Numbered from the stretch's first letter, positions 9,662-20,178 are shown. The stretch: 64,000 nucleotides of DNA from an uncultured Gemmatimonadales bacterium (GCA_963795085.1 CAWCFX010000006.1:160001-224000), one strand, 5' to 3'. The notes: generated by a model from the letters alone, not told the origin. Translations and numbers: made by a program.

Positions 9662-10786
9662 TCAGCCTCGCCGACGCCGCTTGACCGCGGGCTCGATGGC
9701 GGCTGCCCGGGCCAGCTCCCGGTGGATCCGGCCCACCCGTTCGATCTGCCCCTTGGCGGGGAACCGCTCGTAAAAGCCATCGGCGCGGAAGTTCCTCGTC
9801 AGTTCCGACCAGGGCGCCAGTCGCCCGGCCCAGCGCTTGACCCGGCCTTCCTCGAGATCTTCTTCAGCCCAGAGATCGGCGGCCACCCGGATCATGGCTT
9901 TCAGGGTCACCGAACTGGTGATGAAATAGTTGCTGTTCCCCCAGGCATCGCCCCAGACTGATTCGGCGGCCTTGAAGAAATCGCGGATGACCCGGTAGAA
10001 TCGCTCCACGTAGCGGCGGTCGGTTCCGGTCCGTTCAATGGCCTTCCACTCCGCATGCACCCAGCGGTGCACCTCGTTGAACAGCTCGGCCTGGAGGATC
10101 CACTTTTCCTGGCGGCTCCGCCCGCCCAGCCGGTTGATCCGGTACCGAAGCGGGCTATCCGCCTCCTTGTAGAGCAGTTCCACCACCCGGGCCGAAAACT
10201 TCTTGTCGGGGTCCGCCCAGGAGACCCGCTCGTAGAGATCGACCAGGTGGCTCTTGTTGATGCGGGTGGGCGTACTGTTGATGATGACGAACATCTCGGT
10301 GGCGAAGTCTTCGCTCTTGCCGTCGAAGATGATGCAGGGCACATGCAGCGATGCGGCCTCCTCCGGCCGTTCGTTCTGATAGAACTGCAGCGCGGCCAGC
10401 CGGTGCTGGCCGTCGATAATGAGAAAACCGCCGGAGGGCTGGACCAGAATCCCGTTGTTTCCCGACTGCGGGGTAAACCGCAGCCGTTCGGCCGTAAACA
10501 GGAGCACGGTGCCCGGGATGGGCGGCTGGCTCACGGCCGTTTCGTAGAAATTCTTGATGGCCTTGACCTTGGCCTTGGAGAGGGTGCGCTGAAACGCTGC
10601 TTCCGAGCGCTCGACCCTGGAGATGAACCGCGCAATGTCGTCTTCTTCGGGGGGAGCCTCGGGGGCGATTTGCTCGCCCTCGCCATAGAACCGGCTGATG
10701 AATCGCACCCGCTCCAGCAGTTCCGCGGCAGGATAGGCGGCGAAATAGAAGACGCTGTCCTTCTGGCGTACCTGGGTGGCAAGCAT
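9662..10786 (-). CDS. DGQHR-domain protein (DndB/ParB-like superfamily)
   Basis: FQRTL, IIDGQHRL and FVIINSTP motifs. Confidence 0.85.
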   Translation of the reverse strand: MLATQVRQKDSVFYFAAYPAAELLERVRFISRFYGEGEQIAPEAPPEEDDIARFISRVERSEAAFQRTLSKAKVKAIKNFYETAVSQPPIPGTVLLFTAERLRFTPQSGNNGILVQPSGGFLIIDGQHRLAALQFYQNERPEEAASLHVPCIIFDGKSEDFATEMFVIINSTPTRINKSHLVDLYERVSWADPDKKFSARVVELLYKEADSPLRYRINRLGGRSRQEKWILQAELFNEVHRWVHAEWKAIERTGTDRRYVERFYRVIRDFFKAAESVWGDAWGNSNYFITSSVTLKAMIRVAADLWAEEDLEEGRVKRWAGRLAPWSELTRNFRADGFYERFPAKGQIERVGRIHRELARAAAIEPAVKRRRRG

Positions 10787-12329: not shown

Positions 12330-13349
12330 TCAGTCCCGGAGGCTGAGAATTTCGGCGCCCCGAAGGACCCCGGCATCGGTGATATACGCCGCGACCAGGT
12401 CGGCCGGCGTCACGTCAAAGGCCGGGTTCCAGGTACCCACGCCCACAGGTGACGTGACCTGGCCGTTGAATCCGCGGACCTCATCGGCATGCCGCTGTTC
12501 GATGGGTATGGAATTGCCGTCCGGGGTCGCGAAATCGAACGTGGTGCGCGGCGCCGCAACGTAGAAAGGCACCTGGTGGGCGCGCGCCGCCAGGGCCAGC
12601 CCGTAGGTGCCGATCTTGTTGGCAACATCCCCGTTCCGGGCAATCCGGTCGGCGCCCACGATCACGCAGTCCACGTCTCCCTGCCGGAGCCGGCTGGCGG
12701 CCATTCCCTCGGTGATCAGGGTGCAGGCGATTCCCGCCCGGGTCAGTTCCCAGGCGGTGAGCCGGGCTCCCTGCAGGAGAGGGCGCGTCTCCGAGGCCAC
12801 CACCCGGATGTCACGGCCGGCGTCACGGGCCTTGTACAGCGGCGCCAGCGCGGTCCCGATGCCGCCGGTGGCAAGCGCCCCCGCGTTGCAATGGGTGACG
12901 ACCACGGCTCGGTCCCCCAGCAACGCAAGGCCGGCAACCCCGATCCGATCGCACATGGCGGCATCTTCTTTCCAGATGGCGGTGGCTTCCGCGACCAGGA
13001 CCGGGTGAAGCTGGGCCGGGGCGGCGGCCACTGCCCGGCGCCACATCCGGTCCAGCGCCCATCCCAGGTTCACCGCCGTCGGGCGGGTGGCGCGGAGCAG
13101 GTCGTGAGCGCGGCGCAAGCCGGCCAGCGCATCTCCGTCGCCCCCGCCCTGGGGCACCGCCAGCGTCAGGCCCATGGCGGCGCTGATGCCGATGAGCGGC
13201 GCGCCCCGCACCCGGAGGGAGCTAATAGCCTCGGCCACGGCCTCGGCGGTGGCGAGGTCGAGGTAATGTTCGCGGGAGGGAAGCAAGGTCTGGTCGAGAA
13301 TCCGGACCTGGTGGTCCGGCGTCCAGCCGATTGGGTGGGGGATAGGCAT
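12330..13349 (-). CDS. mtnA: Methylthioribose-1-phosphate isomerase
   Basis: [52 protein letters not shown]. Confidence 0.95.
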
Positions 13350-13378
13350 GCAGGCAATCTAACAGCGGGCCGGCGGCG

Positions 13379-14959
13379 TCAGCGGGCTCCCAGCGAGTTG
13401 GTGAACGCGTCATAGACGTCGGCCCGCCACCAGTGCCGGGATTGTTCCATGATCCCGTAGGCTTCTTCCATCGGCATGGCCGCCCGGTAACTGCGGGTGG
13501 TGGTCAGCGCGTCAAAAACATCCGCGATGCAGATGACCTGGGCGTGGAGCGGGATCTCGTCGCCCTTGAGCCGGTCCGGATAGCCGGTACCGTCGTAACG
13601 CTCGTGGTGGGAACGGATGATCGGCTTGATGTCCCAGGGAAATTCCACCGCCGCCAGCAGTTCGAGGCCCCACACCGGGTGCATCTTGACGATATCAAAC
13701 TCTTCGTTGGTAAGCCGGCCCGGCTTGTTGAGGATTTCGTGGGGCACCTTGACCTTGCCAAGATCGTGGAGATAGGCGCCGAGCCGAAGAGTGGTCTGTT
13801 CCTCCTCGCTGAGTCCGAGGGCCTGCGCCACCTTGAGGCCGTACTCCGCCACCCGGCCGCAGTGGCCGAAGGTGTACCGGTCCGACGATTCGATCGACTG
13901 GCCCCACTCGGCGACGACCTTGAGAAACGTCCCTTCCAGCTCCGAGACCTTGCCGCGAATATCCACCAGGTCCACCCGGGCGTTCAGGCGGTGGAAGAGT
14001 CGGTGGGAAGTGTTCAGGAGCCGCAGCGAATCCTGGTTTCGCCCCATCATCTGGAGCAGCAGGGCCATTTCGCGGGAGGCCTCGGCCTCGCTCAGGACCG
14101 AGCCGGTCTCCACCGCGAGGTCGATCGCCGCCTTGAGACGTGACTCGGCCACGGCGTGATGACCGGTTTCCCGGTAGACCGTACCCAGCACCTTGTAGGC
14201 ATCGGCCTTGTCGAGCCGGGCGCCCAGTTCGTCGAATATGCGGAGCGCCGCCTCGGCGCTGTCGCGGGCCTTTTCATAGCGCTGCCGGGCCAGGTGGACT
14301 TCCGCGTGGTTGAGAAGACAGAGTCCCTGAAGATGAATATCGCCCATGGTGGAGGCGCGGGCGTGGCTGGCCACGAAGTACCGGTCCGCTTCTTCCCACT
14401 GTTCCTGGTCGGCGCTGATCATGCCCAGGTTGTGGTACGCAATGGCGCAGCCCCGTTCGTCACCGGCATGCACGAATGCCTGGAGGGAATCGAGGTAGTG
14501 CTGCCGGGCCTGGTCGAGATCTCCCTCGACGTTGGCCAGGATCCCGAGGTTCTGGAGGATCCGGCCCTGCAGTTCTTCAGAATCCCGGCCCAGTTGCAGT
14601 CCGGCCGTAAACCGTTCCCGGGCGGAGTTCATGTCCCCCGCCTCAAACTCGAAGCCGGCCAGCGCGTTCAGCGCTTCGGCAGCCAGCACATGTAGTTCAG
14701 CTTGCTGCGCGGATTCGTAGCTCTGCTGGCAGAGGGCTCGGGCCCGGGCAGGTTCGCTCCGGTGATGGCAGATGACCCCGAGCCGCCGGCGGGCTTCAAT
14801 GCCCGCCGACCCCCGCCCGGCCGAGTCTATGGCTCGCTCATAGCAAGCGGCCGCCAGGTCCAGCTTGCCCTGGCGTTCAAAGCCCCGGCCACTCCGCAGG
14901 TCATTCTCTGCGGCGTCGAGAGCGGGTTCCGGAGCGGGCCGGGCCTCGGGCTTGGTCAT
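13379..14959 (-). CDS. TPR-repeat + HD-GYP domain protein (putative cyclic-dinucleotide phosphodiesterase)
   Basis: About 330 aa of TPR-like repeats (NLG motifs), then HDLGK, HHERYDGTGYP, ADVFDAL. Confidence 0.9.
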   Translation of the reverse strand: MTKPEARPAPEPALDAAENDLRSGRGFERQGKLDLAAACYERAIDSAGRGSAGIEARRRLGVICHHRSEPARARALCQQSYESAQQAELHVLAAEALNALAGFEFEAGDMNSARERFTAGLQLGRDSEELQGRILQNLGILANVEGDLDQARQHYLDSLQAFVHAGDERGCAIAYHNLGMISADQEQWEEADRYFVASHARASTMGDIHLQGLCLLNHAEVHLARQRYEKARDSAEAALRIFDELGARLDKADAYKVLGTVYRETGHHAVAESRLKAAIDLAVETGSVLSEAEASREMALLLQMMGRNQDSLRLLNTSHRLFHRLNARVDLVDIRGKVSELEGTFLKVVAEWGQSIESSDRYTFGHCGRVAEYGLKVAQALGLSEEEQTTLRLGAYLHDLGKVKVPHEILNKPGRLTNEEFDIVKMHPVWGLELLAAVEFPWDIKPIIRSHHERYDGTGYPDRLKGDEIPLHAQVICIADVFDALTTTRSYRAAMPMEEAYGIMEQSRHWWRADVYDAFTNSLGAR

Positions 14960-14972
14960 GCCTTGCTCTGTG

Positions 14973-14987
14973 GCAAGCCGGGCGCCA
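14973..14987 (-). promoter_or_regulatory. Sigma54 -24/-12 promoter candidate for the TPR-HD-GYP gene
   Basis: Minus strand TGGCGCCCGGCTTGC (GG-N10-GC), 13 nt upstream of the ATG. Confidence 0.6.
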
Positions 14988-15112
14988 ATGTGGTCCGCCC
15001 CTTGGGAAGCAGCCTATATTGCTTGTTGACAACGGATTACGGCTACGATTAGAGATTCCAGGCCTCCCTACCCTCCTGGGTTCTTGCCGCAATCTTCCAT
15101 GAAAAGTGGCGA

Positions 15113-15149
15113 TTCAAATAAATACGGCGGCTCCCTGGGGAGCCGCCGT
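15113..15149 (-). terminator. Intrinsic terminator downstream of lipoprotein 15171-15695
   Basis: Stem ACGGCGGCTCC/GGAGCCGCCGT followed on the minus strand by ATTTATTT. Confidence 0.7.
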
Positions 15150-15170
15150 TTGCCCGCCGGTCCGCGCCGA

Positions 15171-15695
15171 CTACCAGGCTACCGCGTACCGCGAGAAGTG
15201 CTCGAGATTGGTGCTGACTTTCTTGCTCAGTTTGTCGTCCACCGACGGCAGCAGCTGCAATATCCGGAGGCCGTCCGTCGTGTAGGCGACCCGGCGCGGC
15301 AGAATCGAAGCCGGCAGCGGGCAGTTGTCGTAGTTCAGGGTGAGCACGGCCGGTTTACCGGCGTTAAATACCAGGCCCTCAGGCTGTAACTGGACGGAAT
15401 TAGTCGTGTCGGCTTCCATGCTCATCGTAATGAGCGTCGAGCGGTTCAGCGCTCCCGCAGGAATCACCAGCTTGTGTTTGCCGACCTTGAGGGTTCCCCC
15501 GGCCTGGTTCACCCGCAGCGATATGGTCGCCGCCGGCGTGGCGGAGCACTTCAGCAGTTTGGAGAGGCCCAGCGCCCCAAACTCCGGCCCGGCCAGGGTG
15601 GGGTCCGGCGCCGCGGCCCGATCAATACCACAACTGACAGTCACCGCCACCAGGGCGGCCACAAACATGAGTCCTACCAGTCGTCTCGCCTTCAT
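15171..15695 (-). CDS. Lipoprotein with ZU5-like domain, C-terminal HFSRYAVAW
   Basis: AAGGAG SD, lipobox TVS-C, GGTLKVGKHKLVIPAGAL ZU5-like start, terminal HFS motif. Confidence 0.75.
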   Translation of the reverse strand: MKARRLVGLMFVAALVAVTVSCGIDRAAAPDPTLAGPEFGALGLSKLLKCSATPAATISLRVNQAGGTLKVGKHKLVIPAGALNRSTLITMSMEADTTNSVQLQPEGLVFNAGKPAVLTLNYDNCPLPASILPRRVAYTTDGLRILQLLPSVDDKLSKKVSTNLEHFSRYAVAW

Positions 15696-15712
15696 TCTTG
15701 CCGCTCCTTGGA

Positions 15713-15780
15713 AGTGAATGTCATGCGCCTATACCGCTGCCTCTTGGCTGCCGACCCGGATGCGGGTGGACGCGGAAAAC
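15713..15780 (-). promoter_or_regulatory. Conserved structured 5' leader motif, copy 1
   Basis: UUUCCGCGUCC-ACCCG/CGGGU-CGGCA-GCC/GGC-AGCGGUA..GGCGCA....AUUCACU. Homologous to 16578-16648. Confidence 0.55.
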
Positions 15781-15797
15781 TTGCAGGCACCATAGGG

Positions 15798-15813
15798 TGC
15801 AAAGCGGATGCCA
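15798..15813 (-). promoter_or_regulatory. Sigma54 -24/-12 promoter candidate
   Basis: Minus strand TGGCATCCGCTTTGCA, near the consensus TGGCAC-N5-TTGCA. Confidence 0.75.
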
Positions 15814-16018
15814 GATGGAGTGCAACTCCGCGCAGTACCCCGCTCCGCCGGGGTGTGCCCACAACATCTCGTGAGCCAACCACTTACCGGCGGCCGGGAG
15901 GCGCCTGAAGGCGCGGCTCAATCCCGCCTGCGAACGGCCTTCGCTTTCACTCTCCCACAACGCGAAACGTCGCCGCCACTGGCGACGACGTTTCGAGATT
16001 TGAGGAGTGGCGCGCGGA

Positions 16019-16564
16019 TCAATAGGCCACGGCGTACCGGGAGAAATGTTCCAGCGGTGCGGTCACTTTCTTCGCCAGAATATTGTCCACCGACCGCAGG
16101 ATCTCGAGCAGCTGCAGCCGTTCGGTGGTGTACACGATCTTCTTGGGAAGCAGGCGCGCCACCAATGAGCAGTTCGCATAGCTCATCGTCAGGCTCGCGG
16201 GCTTCCCGCTTGCGAACCGCAGGCCCTCCGGCAGCAGGCGAACCGAGTTCACGCTGTCCAGGACGATCTCGGCGGTGATGACCGTGTTTTTCGTCAGGGC
16301 GCCCGGCGGGATCACCAGCGTGTGCGGGCCAACCGTGATCGTCCCACCCCGGATCCCGATGGTCTTGCTGCTGATCGCCGGGCGGAGGGGCGAGCAGCTG
16401 AGCAGGGTGGCCAGGAGATTCGTCCCGAGTAGTCCGTCCCGCTGTTCCAGCGCCGGGATTCCGGACAGGTCCGTTGGCCCCTGTGAATCACCCGCAGAGC
16501 AGCTGATGCCGGCCACCAGGAAGAGGCCCAGGAACATCATCGAGATAAGGCGCGAGCGTTTCAT
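16019..16564 (-). CDS. Lipoprotein with ZU5-like domain, C-terminal HFSRYAVAY (paralog of 15171-15695)
   Basis: Lipobox GIS-C, GGTITVGPHTLVIPPGAL, NSVRLLPEGL.F..GKPA, LEHFSRYAVAY. Confidence 0.75.
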   Translation of the reverse strand: MKRSRLISMMFLGLFLVAGISCSAGDSQGPTDLSGIPALEQRDGLLGTNLLATLLSCSPLRPAISSKTIGIRGGTITVGPHTLVIPPGALTKNTVITAEIVLDSVNSVRLLPEGLRFASGKPASLTMSYANCSLVARLLPKKIVYTTERLQLLEILRSVDNILAKKVTAPLEHFSRYAVAY

Positions 16565-16577
16565 CGGACTGCCTCGG

Positions 16578-16648
16578 AGTGAATAGTGTGCGCCGGTACC
16601 GCGGCCGCTTTGGCCGCCGGCCCCAGACATCGGGGCGGACGCGGAAAC
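16578..16648 (-). promoter_or_regulatory. Conserved structured 5' leader motif, copy 2
   Basis: UUUCCGCGUCC-GCCCC/GGGGC-CGGCG-GCC/GGC-CGCGGUA..GGCGCA....AUUCACU. Confidence 0.55.
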
Positions 16649-16664
16649 TGCCGTGCCGATGTAG

Positions 16665-16680
16665 AGCAAGTTGGGGCCCA
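16665..16680 (-). promoter_or_regulatory. Sigma54 -24/-12 promoter candidate (weaker)
   Basis: Minus strand TGGGCCCCAACTTGCT (GG-N10-GC). Distance to the leader motif is similar to copy 1. Confidence 0.5.
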
Positions 16681-16761
16681 GCAGATTGGAATAACGACGC
16701 ACTATTTGACAGCACAATTATATACCCACCCTAACTCTCAGTTCGATAAGTATATAGGCGA

Positions 16762-16786
16762 TATATCAGATATTGCATCTGACATA
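16762..16786. promoter_or_regulatory. AT-rich inverted repeat, candidate activator/operator site
   Basis: TATATCAGAT-N5-ATCTGACATA (one mismatch) inside an AT-rich stretch between divergent genes. Confidence 0.45.
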
Positions 16787-16929
16787 ATATTGAACAACCA
16801 ACGAGGCTGGTCCCGGACCATGGCCAGTGCCATGTTGCTGGGCCTGCCCCCCGTTCGTTGCGGGAGAGCCACAGTCTGCACCCGGCCAGGGAGGCCGCTA
16901 TACTTCCAGTTCCTCTTTCATCCCCGGCC

Positions 16930-17712
16930 ATGAACTTCCCAAGCCTTCTCCTGGAAACCGCCGGCGGCATCGCCCGCCTGACGATCAACCGCCCCGACAA
17001 GCTGAACGCCCTGAACGACCAGGTCATCGCCGACCTGGGCCGGGCCATGGACCAGATAGACACGGACCCAGCCATCCGGGGCGTCATTGTGACCGGGAGC
17101 GGGACGAAAGCCTTTGTCGCGGGCGCGGACATCCCGGAGCTGTCCCGCCAGGGCCCCTTCGACGGCAAGGCTCGGGCGCTGGTCGGCCAGCGGGTCTTTC
17201 GCCGGATCGAACGCTCGGGGAAGCCGGTGATCGCCGCCATCAACGGGTTTGCCCTCGGCGGGGGCTGCGAGCTCGCCATGGCCTGCCACATCCGGATTGC
17301 GGCCGAGTCGGCGAAGTTCGGCCAGCCGGAAGCGAAGCTGGGCATCGCCCCGGGGTATGGCGGCACCGTGCGGCTCCCCCGGCTGGTGGGGAAAGGCCGG
17401 GCCCTGGAGCTCCTCCTGACCGGGGTGATGATTGACGCGAACGAGGCCTACCGGATTGGACTGGTGAACCGGGTGGTTCCGGGCGAGCATCTGCTGGACG
17501 CGGCGGAAACGATGATGCGGACGATCCTGGAGAACGGCCCGCTCGCGGTCAGGGTCTGCATCGAAGCGGTGGACTCGGCGTTGGAAACCACTCTCGACGA
17601 AGGCCTCCTGCTGGAAGCCAATTACTTCGGTCTGCTGGCCTCGACGACCGACATGCGGGAAGGCATGGCCGCCTTTCTCGAGAAGCGCAAGGCGGCCTTT
17701 ACCGGCCACTGA
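16930..17712 (+). CDS. Enoyl-CoA hydratase/crotonase
   Basis: INRPDKLNAL, AFVAGADI, NGFALGGGCELAMAC, GQPE. Confidence 0.93.
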   Translation: MNFPSLLLETAGGIARLTINRPDKLNALNDQVIADLGRAMDQIDTDPAIRGVIVTGSGTKAFVAGADIPELSRQGPFDGKARALVGQRVFRRIERSGKPVIAAINGFALGGGCELAMACHIRIAAESAKFGQPEAKLGIAPGYGGTVRLPRLVGKGRALELLLTGVMIDANEAYRIGLVNRVVPGEHLLDAAETMMRTILENGPLAVRVCIEAVDSALETTLDEGLLLEANYFGLLASTTDMREGMAAFLEKRKAAFTGH

Positions 17713-17748: not shown

Positions 17749-18141
17749 ATGATCCGACAGCTCGCGGGACTGACAGCCCTCGCCCTGGTGGCCGGATGCC
17801 CCGAACGGGGCCGGCTGACCGGTCCCACCAACGGCATCGGCATCGGCCCGGCTGTAAGCATCGACAATCCAGCCCAGGACGTCACCATGACGGCGGGGTC
17901 GGCCATGCTGATCGGGGGAACCGCGTTCGATGAGGAGGGGGTGGACTCGGTCTACTTTACCGCGCTCGACCGTCCCGGAGAAACCGCCACCATTGCTGCG
18001 GGCGGCCATCCACGGGCTTCCTTTTCGTTTGTGCTGAACCTGGTTGGCAACCCGGGCGACACCATCACGGTATGGGTCTATGCGGCCAACCTGAACCAGG
18101 TGCGTGGCGATCCGGTCAGCCGCCGCATCCGGCTGCGCTGA
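17749..18141 (+). CDS. Small lipoprotein with Ig-like domain
   Basis: Lipobox VAG-C, PAVSIDNPAQD...GTAFDEEGVDSVYF. Paralog of 19744-20178. Confidence 0.7.
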   Translation: MIRQLAGLTALALVAGCPERGRLTGPTNGIGIGPAVSIDNPAQDVTMTAGSAMLIGGTAFDEEGVDSVYFTALDRPGETATIAAGGHPRASFSFVLNLVGNPGDTITVWVYAANLNQVRGDPVSRRIRLR

Positions 18142-18606: not shown

Positions 18607-19539
18607 CTAGGACGCCGCCACTTCCTTGGCTCCGGCCTGCAGTTCCGAGGTCCTGGAATGGTCCCGCCGGGCGGCGCGAAGGAGGCTGACGCTGGTGTAC
18701 ACCACGACCACCACGACCAGGTAGCGGATGACGGAGAGGGGCAGTGACTTGACGATGTACGCGGCGATCAGCACGGCGGGGATTCCCCCCAGCGCCATGC
18801 CGAACGTGGCGCCGGGATGGTAGGCGCCGGCCTTGATGAACCGGGCGCTGGCAACCGGCATGAGGAAGGCGCACGACCCCATCATGATGGGGAAAGCGGC
18901 CGTGGGGTTCATGCCCAGGAGGCTGACCAGGATCAGACAGGGGCCATAGAGCCCGATCCCCAGCGTCATCAGGGTGCCGAGGATGAAGTTCCCGATTACG
19001 CCGGCCCAGAGCAGGGTACCGGTCAGGGCCAGCGCTTCCCCGCCGGCGGGGATCAGATTGAACTGGGCCAGCAGCATGAGCCCGGCTGCCGCCAGGAGGG
19101 CAATCCCCATTCCGATCTGGATCGCCCGGCGCGGCCACCGGGCAACGATGCCCGCACCCAGCCAGGCCCCGGCCACGGCGGCGAGTATCATGAGCACCAG
19201 CGTCTTGCTGTCCACCGGCACCAGCTGGGTGAAGATGATCGCCTGGGCGATGGTAGGAAGGGTGTGCCCTGCGTTGAGGGTGCCGGGAATGACTTCGTCC
19301 CGCACCATCTTCCATTGCCGGAACACCGCCGTGGTGGTCGCGAACGAACCGATGCCCAGAGTATCGAAGAAGTTGGCCACGAACCCGGTCGCGAACATGC
19401 CCGGTCCAGCCCGGGTGTCCTCCCGCGCCGCGCGTTTGGCCGCCCGGAGGCCGAGCCCCAGGACGACGATGTAGAACACGGTAAAGCCCGCCAGGGCGAG
19501 CAGCAGAAAGTCTTTGGCGTTCCAGTCCTGGAAGTTCAT
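18607..19539 (-). CDS. TauE/SafE-family sulfite exporter-like membrane protein
   Basis: NFFDTLGIGSFATT, TLGIGLYGPC, PIMMGSCAFLMP, multiple TMs. Confidence 0.85.
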   Translation of the reverse strand: MNFQDWNAKDFLLLALAGFTVFYIVVLGLGLRAAKRAAREDTRAGPGMFATGFVANFFDTLGIGSFATTTAVFRQWKMVRDEVIPGTLNAGHTLPTIAQAIIFTQLVPVDSKTLVLMILAAVAGAWLGAGIVARWPRRAIQIGMGIALLAAAGLMLLAQFNLIPAGGEALALTGTLLWAGVIGNFILGTLMTLGIGLYGPCLILVSLLGMNPTAAFPIMMGSCAFLMPVASARFIKAGAYHPGATFGMALGGIPAVLIAAYIVKSLPLSVIRYLVVVVVVYTSVSLLRAARRDHSRTSELQAGAKEVAAS

Positions 19540-19743
19540 GGCTCGCGGGGAGAATGGGGGTGATGCACGGCGGTTTGGACAATTGTACGCATCCCCTGCG
19601 CGAAAAGCGAACCAGCTTCGGTTCGCCCCCGGGCCGAGGTGCGAAAAGCGAGGCCGGCGCGGCTCGGCTATGTTTGCCTGCCCGATAAAGTTAGACCGCT
19701 TCCGAACTCTCGATTTTCGAGCCTGCTCCCACTACATTACGGG

Positions 19744-20178
19744 ATGTTTTTCGACCCCTGCCGGGCGGGTCAGGCCCGGGAATGCGGAGGACTGGGATGG
19801 AGCGCTTGCTGGGTAGCGCTGGCGCTCCTGTCGGGGTGTGCGGCACGAGACCGAATCACCTTTCCCGTGGCCGACGGCCTCGGTCCGGCGGTGATGATCA
19901 TTTCACCGGGCCAGGACACCACGGTAACCGCAGGACCTTTTGCCCAGGTGAGTGGGCGGGTCACCGACCGGGACGGCATTGACACCGTGTACTTTGATGT
20001 AACGGGGGGCGGCGCCTCCTTTCAGCCATATGTCGCGTCAGGGGCGGACACCGTCAACTTTTCTCTCCCCCTGGCGACGTCCGGCCTGAACGGAGTGACG
20101 ATGACCGTCACCATATTCGCCACCGACCTGGGCGGCGTAAGGGGCGACACGGCCATCCGGAACGTCACCGTCCAGTAG
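19744..20178 (+). CDS. Small lipoprotein with Ig-like domain
   Basis: Lipobox LSG-C, GPAVMIISPGQD...GRVTDRDGIDTVYF. TACATT 5 nt before the ATG. Stop overlaps the recF start (TAGTG). Confidence 0.65.
   Translation: MFFDPCRAGQARECGGLGWSACWVALALLSGCAARDRITFPVADGLGPAVMIISPGQDTTVTAGPFAQVSGRVTDRDGIDTVYFDVTGGGASFQPYVASGADTVNFSLPLATSGLNGVTMTVTIFATDLGGVRGDTAIRNVTVQ

What the first reader, a model, noticed from the sequence alone, without database searches (positions are those of the whole stretch)
13379..16790. Candidate peptide-signalling module: two autoproteolytic ZU5-like lipoproteins + TPR-HD-GYP receptor, all sigma54-driven
Seen: three co-oriented genes. Two paralogous lipoproteins end in LEHFSRYAVAW and LEHFSRYAVAY, and the third has about 330 aa of TPRs fused to an intact HD-GYP domain. 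Each gene has a GG-N10-GC motif upstream. Established: ZU5/Nup98-type domains (e.g. PIDD) self-cleave at HF|S, TPR domains of RRNPP receptors bind 5-10 aa peptides, and HD-GYP domains hydrolyse cyclic dinucleotides. Inference: cleavage would give the near-invariant heptapeptides SRYAVAW/SRYAVAY, the most conserved part of two otherwise diverged paralogs. These could be the ligand for the TPR-HD-GYP, linking a surface-derived peptide to c-di-GMP turnover. I know of no description of such a system.
Basis: partly seen in the sequence, partly recalled or inferred. Interest (0 to 1): 0.8.

Follow-up and report, generated by a model that had tools for sequence, protein, structure and literature searches.

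The report
Self-cleaving lipoprotein paired with TPR phosphodiesterase
A small exported lipoprotein with a self-cleaving-type fold sits next to a cytoplasmic peptide-binding-type sensor fused to a c-di-GMP-degrading enzyme throughout the phylum Gemmatimonadota, which looks like an undescribed peptide signalling circuit but has not been tested at the bench.

Summary
Two paralogous lipoproteins (45% identical) end in HFSRYAVAW and HFSRYAVAY. Downstream lies a 526-aa TPR protein with an intact HD-GYP domain. All three genes are on the minus strand, each behind a sigma54-type -24/-12 site.

The lipoprotein model has a ZU5 fold (Z 11.6 to ankyrin ZU5; GAIN, FIIND and Nup98 autoproteolytic domains rank lower). 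In 243 relatives, 241 keep HFS and 233 of those end exactly 7 residues after HF|S.

Linkage is strong. In 77 of 80 related loci, and 19 of 20 hand-picked divergent ones, a TPR gene is the neighbour, in at least five flanking contexts and three orientations. The TPR part is usually fused to HD-GYP, and is sometimes alone beside a sigma54 activator.

The TPR model resembles LGN/Pins and keeps an invariant Asn ladder, typical of grooves that bind extended peptides. Opp-type peptide importer genes flank 22 of 80 loci.

Sigma54 sites with at most 2 mismatches precede 60 of 81 lipoprotein genes, against 9 of 162 controls.

Cleavage, peptide release, import and binding are all inferred. The tail is also the last structural strand of the fold, and the one complex prediction gave no verdict. 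I put the peptide-ligand model at about 0.4. No description was found in the papers searched.

The parts
16666..16680 (-). sigma54-type -24/-12 site (TGGGCCCCAACTTGC, 2 mismatches) 102 nt upstream of the lipoprotein B start
   Evidence: The same spacing class as lipoprotein A. Conserved in relatives.
16019..16564 (-). lipoprotein B, 181 aa: signal peptide with lipobox Cys, disordered linker, ZU5-like domain, ending HF|SRYAVAY (tail codons 16022-16042)
   Evidence: E 7.3e-65 to the family profile
15964..15995 (-). strong hairpin just after the lipoprotein B stop (15-bp stem, no U tract)
   Evidence: -35.1 kcal/mol, z -4.26. Sequence read.
15799..15813 (-). sigma54-type -24/-12 site (TGGCATCCGCTTTGC, 1 mismatch) 104 nt upstream of the lipoprotein A start
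15171..15695 (-). lipoprotein A, 174 aa: signal peptide plus Cys22 (15630-15695), linker, ZU5-like domain aa 51-174 (15174-15545), ending HF|SRYAVAW (tail codons 15174-15194)
15124..15149 (-). terminator-like hairpin (11 pairs, 9 GC) followed by ATTTATTTGA, after lipoprotein A
14973..14987 (-). sigma54-type site (TGGCGCCCGGCTTGC, 1 mismatch) ending 14 nt before the ATG of the TPR-HD-GYP gene. This is the weakest of the three, as it would give a nearly leaderless transcript.
13928..14926 (-). TPR superhelix, aa 12-344, 17 helices, with the Asn ladder N98/N137/N177/N217
13433..13894 (-). HD-GYP domain, aa 356-509 (part of gene 13379..14959), with HD and GYP motifs present
   Evidence: HD_5 5.2e-38; the NCBIfam NosR-family c-di-GMP phosphodiesterase hit of 3.2e-32 is below its cut-off; motifs read

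Best explanation
This is a sigma54-controlled signalling module whose conserved core is a gene pair. One gene encodes an exported lipoprotein with a ZU5-type autoproteolytic domain. The other encodes a cytoplasmic TPR receptor, here fused to an HD-GYP cyclic-dinucleotide phosphodiesterase.

Proposed course of events:
1. A sigma54 activator switches on the lipoprotein genes.
2. The lipoproteins are exported and lipidated.
3. Their ZU5 domain cuts itself between Phe and Ser of HF|S by an N-O acyl shift.
4. The 7-residue tail (SRYAVAW or SRYAVAY) first stays in place as the last beta strand. It is freed only when the domain is unfolded or degraded.
5. The peptide is taken up by an Opp-type ABC importer and binds in the Asn-lined groove of the TPR superhelix.
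6. Binding changes HD-GYP activity and so c-di-GMP levels. In the sister cassettes it would act on a TPR-only protein that works with a sigma54 activator.

Shown here: the genes, the folds, the motifs, the conserved linkage, the promoters, and the recurring importer neighbours. Inferred: cleavage, release, import, binding and the effect on the enzyme.
For: Fold. The AF2 model has pLDDT above 90 over aa 50-174. The best PDB matches are ankyrin ZU5 (Z 11.6, rmsd 2.6 over 114 residues) and UNC5b (Z 9.0). Next come the autoproteolytic GAIN (Z 7.7-8.2), CARD8/NLRP1 FIIND (Z 5.4-5.9) and Nup98 (Z 4.7) domains.

Cleavage motif. 241 of 243 family proteins held carry HFS. Of the other two, one is truncated and one has HFT, which keeps a nucleophile. 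233 of the 241 end exactly 7 residues after HF|. Divergent paralogs keep x-[FL]-[ST] (GFS, SFT, HLS). In D'Osualdo 2011 (passages read), Phe and Ser are essential, while the His (Nup98) or Ser (CARD8) that precedes Phe matters only marginally.

Linkage. A TPR gene follows the lipoprotein gene on the same strand in 77 of 80 loci. Two of the other three contigs end within 150 bp, and one is a real exception. The pair sits in at least 5 different flanking contexts. In 19 of 20 divergent loci that I picked, a TPR gene is adjacent in co-directional, divergent or convergent orientation.

Output domain varies. HD-GYP follows the TPR part in 61 of 80 loci (3 more have weak matches). A TPR-only partner is found in 9 main loci and in the bEBP-lipoprotein-TPR cassettes. 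This marks the TPR as the part tied to the lipoprotein.

Peptide-type groove. The TPR model has pLDDT 91.6. Its best matches are LGN/Pins TPRs solved with extended peptides (E 5e-12, TMq up to 0.76) and OGT; Rap receptors match at E 1.6e-7. N98, N137, N177 and N217 are invariant in 70 sequences and kept in 11-12 of 12 divergent partners.

Importer. Opp-type parts (SBP_bac_5, BPD_transp_1, ABC_tran plus oligo_HPY) lie in the flanks of 22 of 80 loci in at least 3 arrangements. In L046 the Opp ATPase ORF opens 4 nt after the TPR-HD-GYP stop. The window's own genome has only 4 SBP_bac_5 genes. One of them sits beside its bEBP-lipoprotein-TPR cassette on contig C4 and is 52-55% identical to the locus-linked ones.

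Sigma54. Sites with at most 2 mismatches occur upstream of 60 of 81 lipoprotein genes against 9 of 162 controls. Sites with at most 1 mismatch occur in 33 of 81 against 0 of 162. rpoN and 12 strong activator genes are present.
Against: Nothing biochemical is known.

The tail pattern S-x-Y-[AV]-[VI]-[AGS]-[WYF] and the strand at 170-173 in the model fit a structural last strand. D'Osualdo 2011 calls the equivalent strand crucial for fold stability. Its conservation therefore needs no ligand role, and a cut tail would not leave by itself.

The lipoprotein is predicted to be outside the cytoplasm (lipobox; near-invariant Cys50 and Cys125). The receptor has no signal peptide.

The tail is almost the same across the phylum. 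It is also nearly the same in cassettes with different outputs within one genome (W, Y and F ends), so it carries little specificity.

In divergent members the last residue is D, L, E, Q or N, and the tail is 7-10 residues long.

The window's own pair has no Opp gene nearby. 58 of 80 loci have none within the fetched flanks. The loci are related, so these counts overstate independence.

The own genome also has a TPR-HD-GYP paralog with no lipoprotein gene beside it (contig C2).

Pfam ZU5 is not reached at sequence level: E 0.12 for A, none for B, and 3 of 37 relatives at E <= 0.01.
Confidence: 0.4

Rival explanations
1. The pair is functionally coupled, but not through a free heptapeptide. The TPR domain binds another protein or peptide, for example a segment of a sigma54 activator or nutrient peptides brought in by Opp. 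The ZU5 lipoprotein is a co-regulated envelope protein whose self-cleavage, if any, is only maturation.
For: The tail conservation is explained by the fold alone. TPR-only partners sit next to sigma54 activators, and a Rap protein bound to a response regulator is among the fold matches (3ulq). A TPR-GGDEF enzyme regulated by a neighbouring TPR protein is known in Vibrio (RcbAB; abstract read). One TPR-HD-GYP paralog has no lipoprotein neighbour.
Against: It gives no reason why the lipoprotein gene in particular stays beside the TPR gene through changes of context, orientation and output domain. It also does not explain why x-F-[ST] plus a short free C-terminus is kept in every subfamily.
Confidence: 0.3
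2. This is a sentinel for export or lipoprotein-trafficking stress. The TPR groove recognises the unfolded free C-terminus of precursor that piles up in the cytoplasm when export fails, and adjusts c-di-GMP. No cleavage or re-import is needed.
For: It solves the compartment problem. TPR domains often clamp free C-terminal peptides (recalled knowledge: Hop, PEX5). The tail is kept even where His is lost (GFS and SFT paralogs). The lipoprotein NlpE serves as a trafficking sentinel in E. coli (recalled, not checked here).
Against: It does not explain the near-universal F-[ST] nucleophile pair, the recurring Opp importer neighbours, or the tandem multiplication of the lipoprotein gene.
Confidence: 0.1
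3. The genes are neighbours only by inherited synteny within one phylum, and the sigma54 motifs are chance matches.
For: All loci come from one phylum and are not independent. The GG-N10-GC pattern is not enriched in the window as a whole.
Against: There are at least 5 flanking contexts. Co-directional, divergent and convergent arrangements occur. Several independent cassettes exist per genome. Promoter sites with at most 1 mismatch are found in 33 of 81 upstream regions against 0 of 162 controls.
Confidence: 0.03

Closest known systems
ZU5 / FIIND / Nup98 autoproteolytic domains (PIDD, UNC5CL, NLRP1, CARD8, Nup98) and bacterial ZU5 autopeptidases of polymorphic toxins (Zhang 2012, PMC3482391)
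   Same: A beta-sandwich fold (Z 11.6 to ankyrin ZU5) with an [HSG]-F-[ST] motif just before the last strand. Bacterial ZU5 autopeptidases on secreted proteins are already described (passages read).
   Different: This is a stand-alone 120-residue domain on a lipid anchor. What lies after the cut is only 7 residues, not a domain or toxin. It is paired with a TPR sensor rather than with RHS/SpvB/TcdB export parts. Pfam ZU5 is not reached by sequence.
GAIN domain of adhesion GPCRs with its tethered agonist (Stachel)
   Same: The fold is related (Z 7.7-8.2). The H-[LF]-|-[ST] cleavage site is followed by a roughly 7-residue hydrophobic beta strand that stays buried after cleavage and acts as a ligand once exposed (recalled knowledge). 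Some relatives even read HLS.
   Different: In GAIN the strand is covalently tied to the receptor it activates. Here it would be a free peptide, and the proposed receptor is a separate cytoplasmic protein.
RRNPP peptide quorum sensing of Firmicutes (Rap/Phr, NprR, PlcR/PapR, PrgX, Rgg)
   Same: The receptor gene is adjacent to the gene of an exported precursor. The signal is the C-terminal 5-8 residues of that precursor. Import is Opp-dependent, the receptor is a cytoplasmic TPR protein, and some systems have a locus-encoded OppA homolog (PrgZ). This is recalled knowledge, plus the abstract start of PMC10075063 in the listing.
   Different: The host is a diderm phylum. The precursor is a folded 174-aa lipoprotein that would process itself. 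The TPR is closer to LGN/Pins than to Rap. The output is a C-terminal HD-GYP, not an N-terminal HTH or phosphatase fold. The peptide hardly varies between species.
LGN/Pins and OGT TPR superhelices
   Same: These are the best structural matches (E 5e-12, TMq up to 0.76). They share about 40-residue repeats, with one conserved Asn in every second helix lining the inner groove.
   Different: They are eukaryotic scaffolds or enzymes with only 16-19% identity, and no functional relation is implied.
RcbAB of Vibrio vulnificus (TPR-GGDEF plus a TPR partner; PMC12282931)
   Same: A two-gene operon in which a TPR domain gates a c-di-GMP enzyme and the neighbouring gene product relieves it (abstract read).
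   Different: There the enzyme is a cyclase rather than HD-GYP, the partner is a cytoplasmic TPR protein rather than an exported ZU5 lipoprotein, and no peptide is involved.

Membership tests
ZU5 domain superfamily | ZU5 beta-sandwich fold | tested here: met
   VIA-align: ankyrin ZU5A 3ud1 Z 11.6, rmsd 2.6 over 114 residues; UNC5b 3g5b Z 9.0; ZO-1 Z 8.2. Foldseek: ankyrin ZU5 E 1e-4. Model pLDDT is above 90 over the domain.
ZU5 domain superfamily | sequence match to Pfam PF00791 above its cut-off | tested here: not met
   Lipoprotein A scores E 0.12, 13.1 bits, against a cut-off of 21; B has no hit. 3 of 37 relatives match at E <= 0.01, best 0.0026. One related Atlas cluster carries PF00791 in 50% of its members.
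ZU5 domain superfamily (autoproteolytic subgroup) | [HS]-F-[ST] motif before the last strand | tested here: met
   HFS is present in 241 of 243 family proteins, with one HFT. Paralogs carry GFS, SFT or HLS.
ZU5 domain superfamily (autoproteolytic subgroup) | self-cleavage between F and S | not testable with these tools
   Needs intact-mass MS of the purified protein and an S168A control.
HD-GYP phosphodiesterases | HD-GYP domain with metal-binding H/HD/H/HH/D residues and the GYP motif | tested here: met
   Pfam HD_5 5.2e-38 and HD 5.5e-24. LHDLGK, SHHERYDGTGYP and IADVFDAL are read in the translation. The assignment of ligand residues is from recalled knowledge.
HD-GYP phosphodiesterases | hydrolysis of c-di-GMP (or cGAMP) | not testable with these tools
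   Needs an enzyme assay.
RRNPP receptors | homology to Rap/NprR/PlcR/PrgX/Rgg TPR domains with their N-terminal effector (HTH or 3-helix bundle) | tested here: not met
   There is no HTH or other N-terminal domain. Rap chains appear only at rank 41 and beyond (E 1.6e-7), behind LGN, designed TPRs and OGT. The output domain is C-terminal.
RRNPP receptors | adjacent gene for a small secreted propeptide whose C-terminal part is the ligand | tested here: inconclusive
   The adjacent gene is exported and has a conserved C-terminal 7-mer, but it encodes a folded 174-aa lipoprotein. The ligand role is untested.
sigma54-dependent promoters | -24 GG and -12 GC elements at fixed spacing upstream of the gene, conserved in relatives | tested here: met
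   Window sites. At most 2 mismatches in 60 of 81 upstream regions against 9 of 162 controls; at most 1 mismatch in 33 of 81 against 0 of 162. Own paralogs on C1 and C4 also have sites.
sigma54-dependent promoters | rpoN and a cognate activator (bEBP) in the genome | tested here: met
   rpoN at C2:375987-376463, E 9.5e-64. There are 12 strong Sigma54_activat matches. Two activator genes lie directly upstream of lipoprotein paralogs. No activator gene is adjacent to the window's own pair.
sigma54-dependent promoters | transcription start and dependence on RpoN | not tested
   Needs 5' end mapping and an rpoN or activator mutant.

The most novel reading that the evidence does not exclude
Gemmatimonadota may run a peptide signalling system of a kind not known in diderm bacteria. 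The pro-signal is a lipid-anchored ZU5 domain that cuts itself and holds its own 7-residue signal as a buried strand, like the tethered agonist of adhesion GPCRs. Release by unfolding or proteolysis, uptake by a dedicated Opp-type importer and capture by LGN-like TPR receptors would then set c-di-GMP levels (HD-GYP fusions). They would also set sigma54-dependent transcription of the lipoprotein genes themselves (TPR-only plus activator cassettes), giving an auto-inducing loop.
Probability: 0.3. Interest if true: 0.88.

Novelty: new variant of a known kind. Interest (0 to 1): 0.76.

Why it matters
If the model holds, three things follow:
- It would be the first RRNPP-style peptide-receptor circuit in a diderm phylum.
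- It would be the first case of a self-cleaving ZU5 domain used to make a diffusible signal rather than to free a toxin or effector domain.
- It would be a direct link from an envelope-derived peptide to c-di-GMP turnover and sigma54 transcription.

It would also give a bacterial counterpart to the 'cleaved but held' logic of GAIN and FIIND domains.

Even under the cautious reading, the family is worth annotating. It has more than a thousand 50%-identity clusters, is found in about half of the Gemmatimonadota genomes sampled, has no Pfam or NCBIfam name, and has a clear fold and an obligate partner. Every step can be tested with a 7-residue synthetic peptide and two soluble domains.

Tried and rejected
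Complex prediction: TPR domain (alignment A2) with residues 140-174 of lipoprotein A (alignment A1). The result was 'no answer' (scores 0.22 and 0.13, mark 0.32, controls not run). It says nothing either way. The 7-mer alone could not be sent because chains must be at least 30 residues.

Sequence search of the family profile against PDB chains: only two chance-level hits (E 0.14 and 1). The ZU5 relation is visible by fold only.

NCBIfam: no family for either lipoprotein.

Search for longer, fused relatives: none at E <= 0.001 among 5628 candidates. This is weak evidence, as the tool itself says.

Earlier notes of this scan: nothing for this place or sequence.

Tat export was considered for the RR in MKARRL and rejected, because the twin arginine is not conserved in the alignment.

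A tail/TPR covariation test was considered and dropped. The 80 loci were selected with a pattern that fixes the tail, the window itself pairs one receptor with both W and Y tails, and the divergent set is too small and confounded by phylogeny. Residue R133 varies, but not interpretably.

Paper searches returned no description of a ZU5 lipoprotein with a TPR-HD-GYP. Only listings and abstract starts were seen, apart from the papers named elsewhere in this report.

Sigma-70 scan: 0 promoter-like sites in 13000-17200.

Full report
WHAT IS THERE

On the minus strand the window carries, in order of transcription:
- Lipoprotein B, 16564..16019, 181 aa counted from the ATG that aligns with its relatives.
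- Lipoprotein A, 15695..15171, 174 aa.
- A 526-aa TPR-HD-GYP protein, 14959..13379.

A and B are 45% identical (82 of 181, E 4e-51). Each has a signal peptide ending in a lipobox Cys, a roughly 30-residue low-confidence linker and a compact C-terminal domain. They end in LEHFSRYAVAW and LEHFSRYAVAY.

The third protein has Pfam TPR_12 (3.7e-28) and HD_5 (5.2e-38). Its HD and HHERYDGTGYP motifs are intact. It has no signal peptide; the model is helical from residue 12 onward.

A strong hairpin follows B (-35.1 kcal/mol, z -4.26). A terminator-like hairpin with a T-rich tail follows A. No sigma-70-like promoter was found in 13000-17200.

SIGMA54

Sites of the type TGGCAC-N5-TTGC lie 102 and 104 nt before the starts of B and A, and 14 nt before the HD-GYP ATG. 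The window as a whole is not enriched for the loose pattern (55 found, 61.8 expected). However, 2 of its only 3 sites with at most 1 mismatch are these.

The comparative test is decisive for the lipoprotein genes. I examined 81 upstream regions of 250 nt from related loci, taking lipoprotein matches that start within the first 15 profile positions and have enough upstream sequence:
- 60 have a GG/GC-cored site with at most 2 mismatches, and 33 with at most 1.
- Of 162 control regions (the antisense of the same stretches, and 250 nt inside the genes), 9 have at most 2 mismatches and 0 have at most 1.

The genome has rpoN and 12 strong sigma54-activator genes. Two of those activator genes stand directly upstream of further lipoprotein paralogs, on contigs C1 and C4. 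Sites also occur 108 nt before the C1 paralog and about 54 nt before one C4 paralog.

The site before the HD-GYP gene is the least secure. In most relatives the TPR gene follows the lipoprotein gene closely (the TPR match starts 6-122 bp after it in most loci).

THE LIPOPROTEIN DOMAIN

Pfam and NCBIfam give no family: ZU5 at E 0.12 for A only, and 3 of 37 relatives at E <= 0.01.

The AF2 model built on 37 relatives is confident over aa 50-174. It matches the following:
- ZU5 domains: ankyrin 3ud1 Z 11.6, rmsd 2.6 Å over 114 residues; UNC5b Z 9.0; ZO-1 Z 8.2. Foldseek gives E 1e-4.
- Lower down, the autoproteolytic relatives: GAIN (Z 7.7-8.2), CARD8/NLRP1 FIIND (Z 5.4-5.9) and Nup98 (Z 4.7).

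The family is large. There are 96 hits in the 90% clusters and 1074 representatives at 50% identity. It was found in 148 of 301 sampled Gemmatimonadota genomes and 74 of 127 genera (this tally includes the unpublished genomes G181 and G056). 79 of the 80 best loci in genome contigs carry Gemmatimonadota labels.

One of the other two is truncated and one reads HFT. 233 of the 241 end exactly 7 residues after HF|. In the 37-row alignment H, F, S, R, Y and A are invariant. In the wider set the tail reads S-x-Y-[AV]-[VI]-[AGS]-[WYF] with position 2 free. In still more distant members it is 7-10 residues long and may end in D, L, E, Q or N.

Paralogs next to activators read GFS or SFT, and some distant ones read HLS. 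Passages of D'Osualdo et al. 2011 state three relevant points. In Nup98 and CARD8 the residue before Phe matters only marginally. The buried Phe and the Ser nucleophile are essential. The motif lies just before a long strand important for fold stability. So the part of the motif that catalysis needs is what the family never loses. I take self-cleavage as likely (about 0.65) but unshown.

The same facts mean the tail is a structural strand (E170-173 in the model). It would remain bound after cleavage, as in GAIN, FIIND and Nup98.

Near-invariant Cys50 and Cys125 suggest a disulfide, which fits an exported protein (inference).

THE LINKAGE

Among the 80 best related loci, the main lipoprotein gene is followed on the same strand by a TPR gene in 77. 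In two of the other three (L020, L048) the contig ends 48 and 148 bp after the gene. L059 is a true exception, with another cassette nearby.

The partners break down as follows:
- A full or nearly full HD-GYP match follows the TPR part in 61 loci; 3 more (L023, L024, L035) have a short or weak match.
- 9 loci have a TPR-only partner. For 8 of these, Pfam finds nothing but TPR.
- In 4 loci the contig cuts the TPR gene.

Clustering of flanking genes shows the pair in at least five different contexts. The window belongs to the gyrB/recF/enoyl-CoA hydratase | pair | mtnA/glpK context.

I then fetched 20 lower-scoring family matches, chosen by me from the list, so not a random sample. 19 have a TPR gene adjacent, placed co-directionally, divergently or convergently, with or without HD-GYP or an activator.

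Genomes often hold several cassettes. The window's genome has four:
- Lipoproteins B and A with TPR-HD-GYP (this window).
- Activator plus a lipoprotein ending WHFSRYAVAF (C1).
- An OppA-like gene, an activator, a lipoprotein ending SFTRYALAY, a TPR-only gene and a lipoprotein ending GFSKYAVAY (C4).
- A TPR-HD-GYP plus a TPR gene with no lipoprotein (C2).

The constant partner of the lipoprotein is therefore the TPR domain. The output varies. Inherited synteny alone cannot explain this.

THE TPR DOMAIN

The model (pLDDT 91.6, 17 helices) is closest to LGN/Pins TPRs solved with extended peptides in their inner groove (E 5e-12, TMq up to 0.76). OGT follows, and Rap pheromone receptors appear at E 1.6e-7.

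In 70 partner sequences N98, N137, N177 and N217 are invariant. That is one Asn in every second helix at a period of about 40 residues. R58, R133, Q136, H176, E220, R263, R274 and E293 are also invariant. In 12 divergent partners the four Asn are kept in 11, 12, 12 and 11.

Such Asn ladders bind the backbone of extended peptides in LGN, OGT and importin-alpha (recalled knowledge). This argues for a peptide ligand but does not name it.

PEPTIDE-HANDLING NEIGHBOURS

Pfam on representatives of the recurrent flank clusters gave:
- An OppA-type binding protein (SBP_bac_5), an Opp-type permease and an Opp-type ATPase (ABC_tran plus oligo_HPY).
- A DPP-IV/S9 peptidase and an M1 aminopeptidase.

Opp-type parts lie in the fetched flanks (mean locus 11.7 kb) of 22 of 80 loci, and OppA in 20. 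Any of the five families occurs in 39 of 80.

The Opp parts appear in at least three arrangements:
- oppA-oppB-x-[pair]-oppD, with the oppD ORF opening 4 nt after the HD-GYP stop in L046.
- oppD-EF-G-like-[pair]-oppA.
- oppA-[pair].

The window's genome has only 4 SBP_bac_5 genes in 3.9 Mb. One of them lies beside the C4 cassette and is 52-55% identical to the locus-linked OppAs elsewhere. A rough chance expectation is about 1-2% per locus.

Caveats: the loci are related, the window's own pair has no Opp gene nearby, and 58 of 80 loci show none.

HOW IT MOST LIKELY WORKS

Best reading (about 0.4): sigma54-driven expression of a self-cleaving ZU5 lipoprotein; the 7-residue tail held as a strand until the domain is unfolded or degraded; uptake by an Opp-type importer; and capture in the TPR groove, which gates HD-GYP, or in sister cassettes a TPR-only protein acting with a sigma54 activator. 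That last arrangement would close an auto-inducing loop. Everything after 'expression' is inference.

Rivals:
- A real functional link that does not run through the free peptide (0.3).
- A cytoplasmic sensor of unexported precursor tails (0.1).
- Mere synteny (0.03).

COMPARISON WITH THE KNOWN

Bacterial ZU5 autopeptidases are described, but as N-terminal processing domains of RHS-type polymorphic toxins (Zhang 2012, passages read; Kaur 2021, passages read).

The module works like RRNPP systems in its logic and like GAIN in its 'cleaved but held' strand. It is a member of neither (see membership table).

RcbAB of Vibrio is a precedent for a TPR-gated c-di-GMP enzyme with a partner gene (abstract).

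Four full-text searches found no description of this pairing. Supplements were not consulted.

VERDICT

This is a new variant of known kinds of system, with high value as a testable lead.

Noticed in passing
L022, L037-L039, L041, L047, L048, L053, L065, L075, L077, L079 (DPP-IV/S9); L008, L009, L011, L012, L023, L024, L059, L081 (M1): A DPP-IV-family S9 peptidase gene (12 of 80 loci) or an M1 aminopeptidase gene (8 of 80) recurs near the pair. In mammals DPP8/9 bind the new N-terminus made by ZU5 (FIIND) autoproteolysis in NLRP1/CARD8, a curious parallel. In the window's genome the one strong DPP-IV gene lies about 30 kb away.
   Followed up: partly
G041:C2:29136-31322; G212:C7:282-1910; G007:C313: The lipoprotein gene is multiplied in tandem, with up to four copies in a row and up to 8 matches per genome, as in the window's B and A pair.
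   Followed up: no
own genome C1:282958-283632 (L086); rows P0077, P0082, P0083, P0088, P0093 of alignment A1: A 'long' subfamily of about 240 aa carries a lysine/glutamate-rich, probably helical insert of about 50 residues between the lipid anchor and the ZU5 domain.
   Followed up: no
L100, L102, L106: Distant family members read HLS instead of HFS, which is the motif of GAIN domains.
   Followed up: no
L010, L026, L049, L052, L054, L064, L068, L073, L074, L078; own genome C2:104629-107336 (L088): A second, TPR-only gene often follows the TPR-HD-GYP gene. The own-genome C2 copy has this arrangement without any lipoprotein gene.
   Followed up: partly
L087:6883-8946 (own genome C4); cluster 11 in L050, L056, L061, L063, L069, L077, L080, L081: An EF-G paralog recurs next to the cassettes in one group of contexts. 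The reason is unknown.
   Followed up: no
own genome C1:281134-282606 and L087:2878-4221: The sigma54 activators beside lipoprotein paralogs have an N-terminal region of 115-140 residues with no Pfam match. This is an unknown sensor or partner-binding domain.
   Followed up: no
window 17749-18141 (+) and 19639-20178 (+): Two small paralogous proteins with a Big_7 Ig-like domain and lipoprotein-like N-termini flank a TauE/SafE permease gene at 18607-19539(-).
   Followed up: no
window 9662-10786 (-): A 374-aa ORF contains the string IIDGQHRLAAL, reminiscent of DGQHR/DndB-like domains (seen; the family name is recalled and was not scanned).
   Followed up: no
L020: This is the only locus of 80 not labelled Gemmatimonadota. 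It is a 1.5-kb contig of a bin labelled Sporichthyaceae, probably a binning error rather than a transfer.
   Followed up: no
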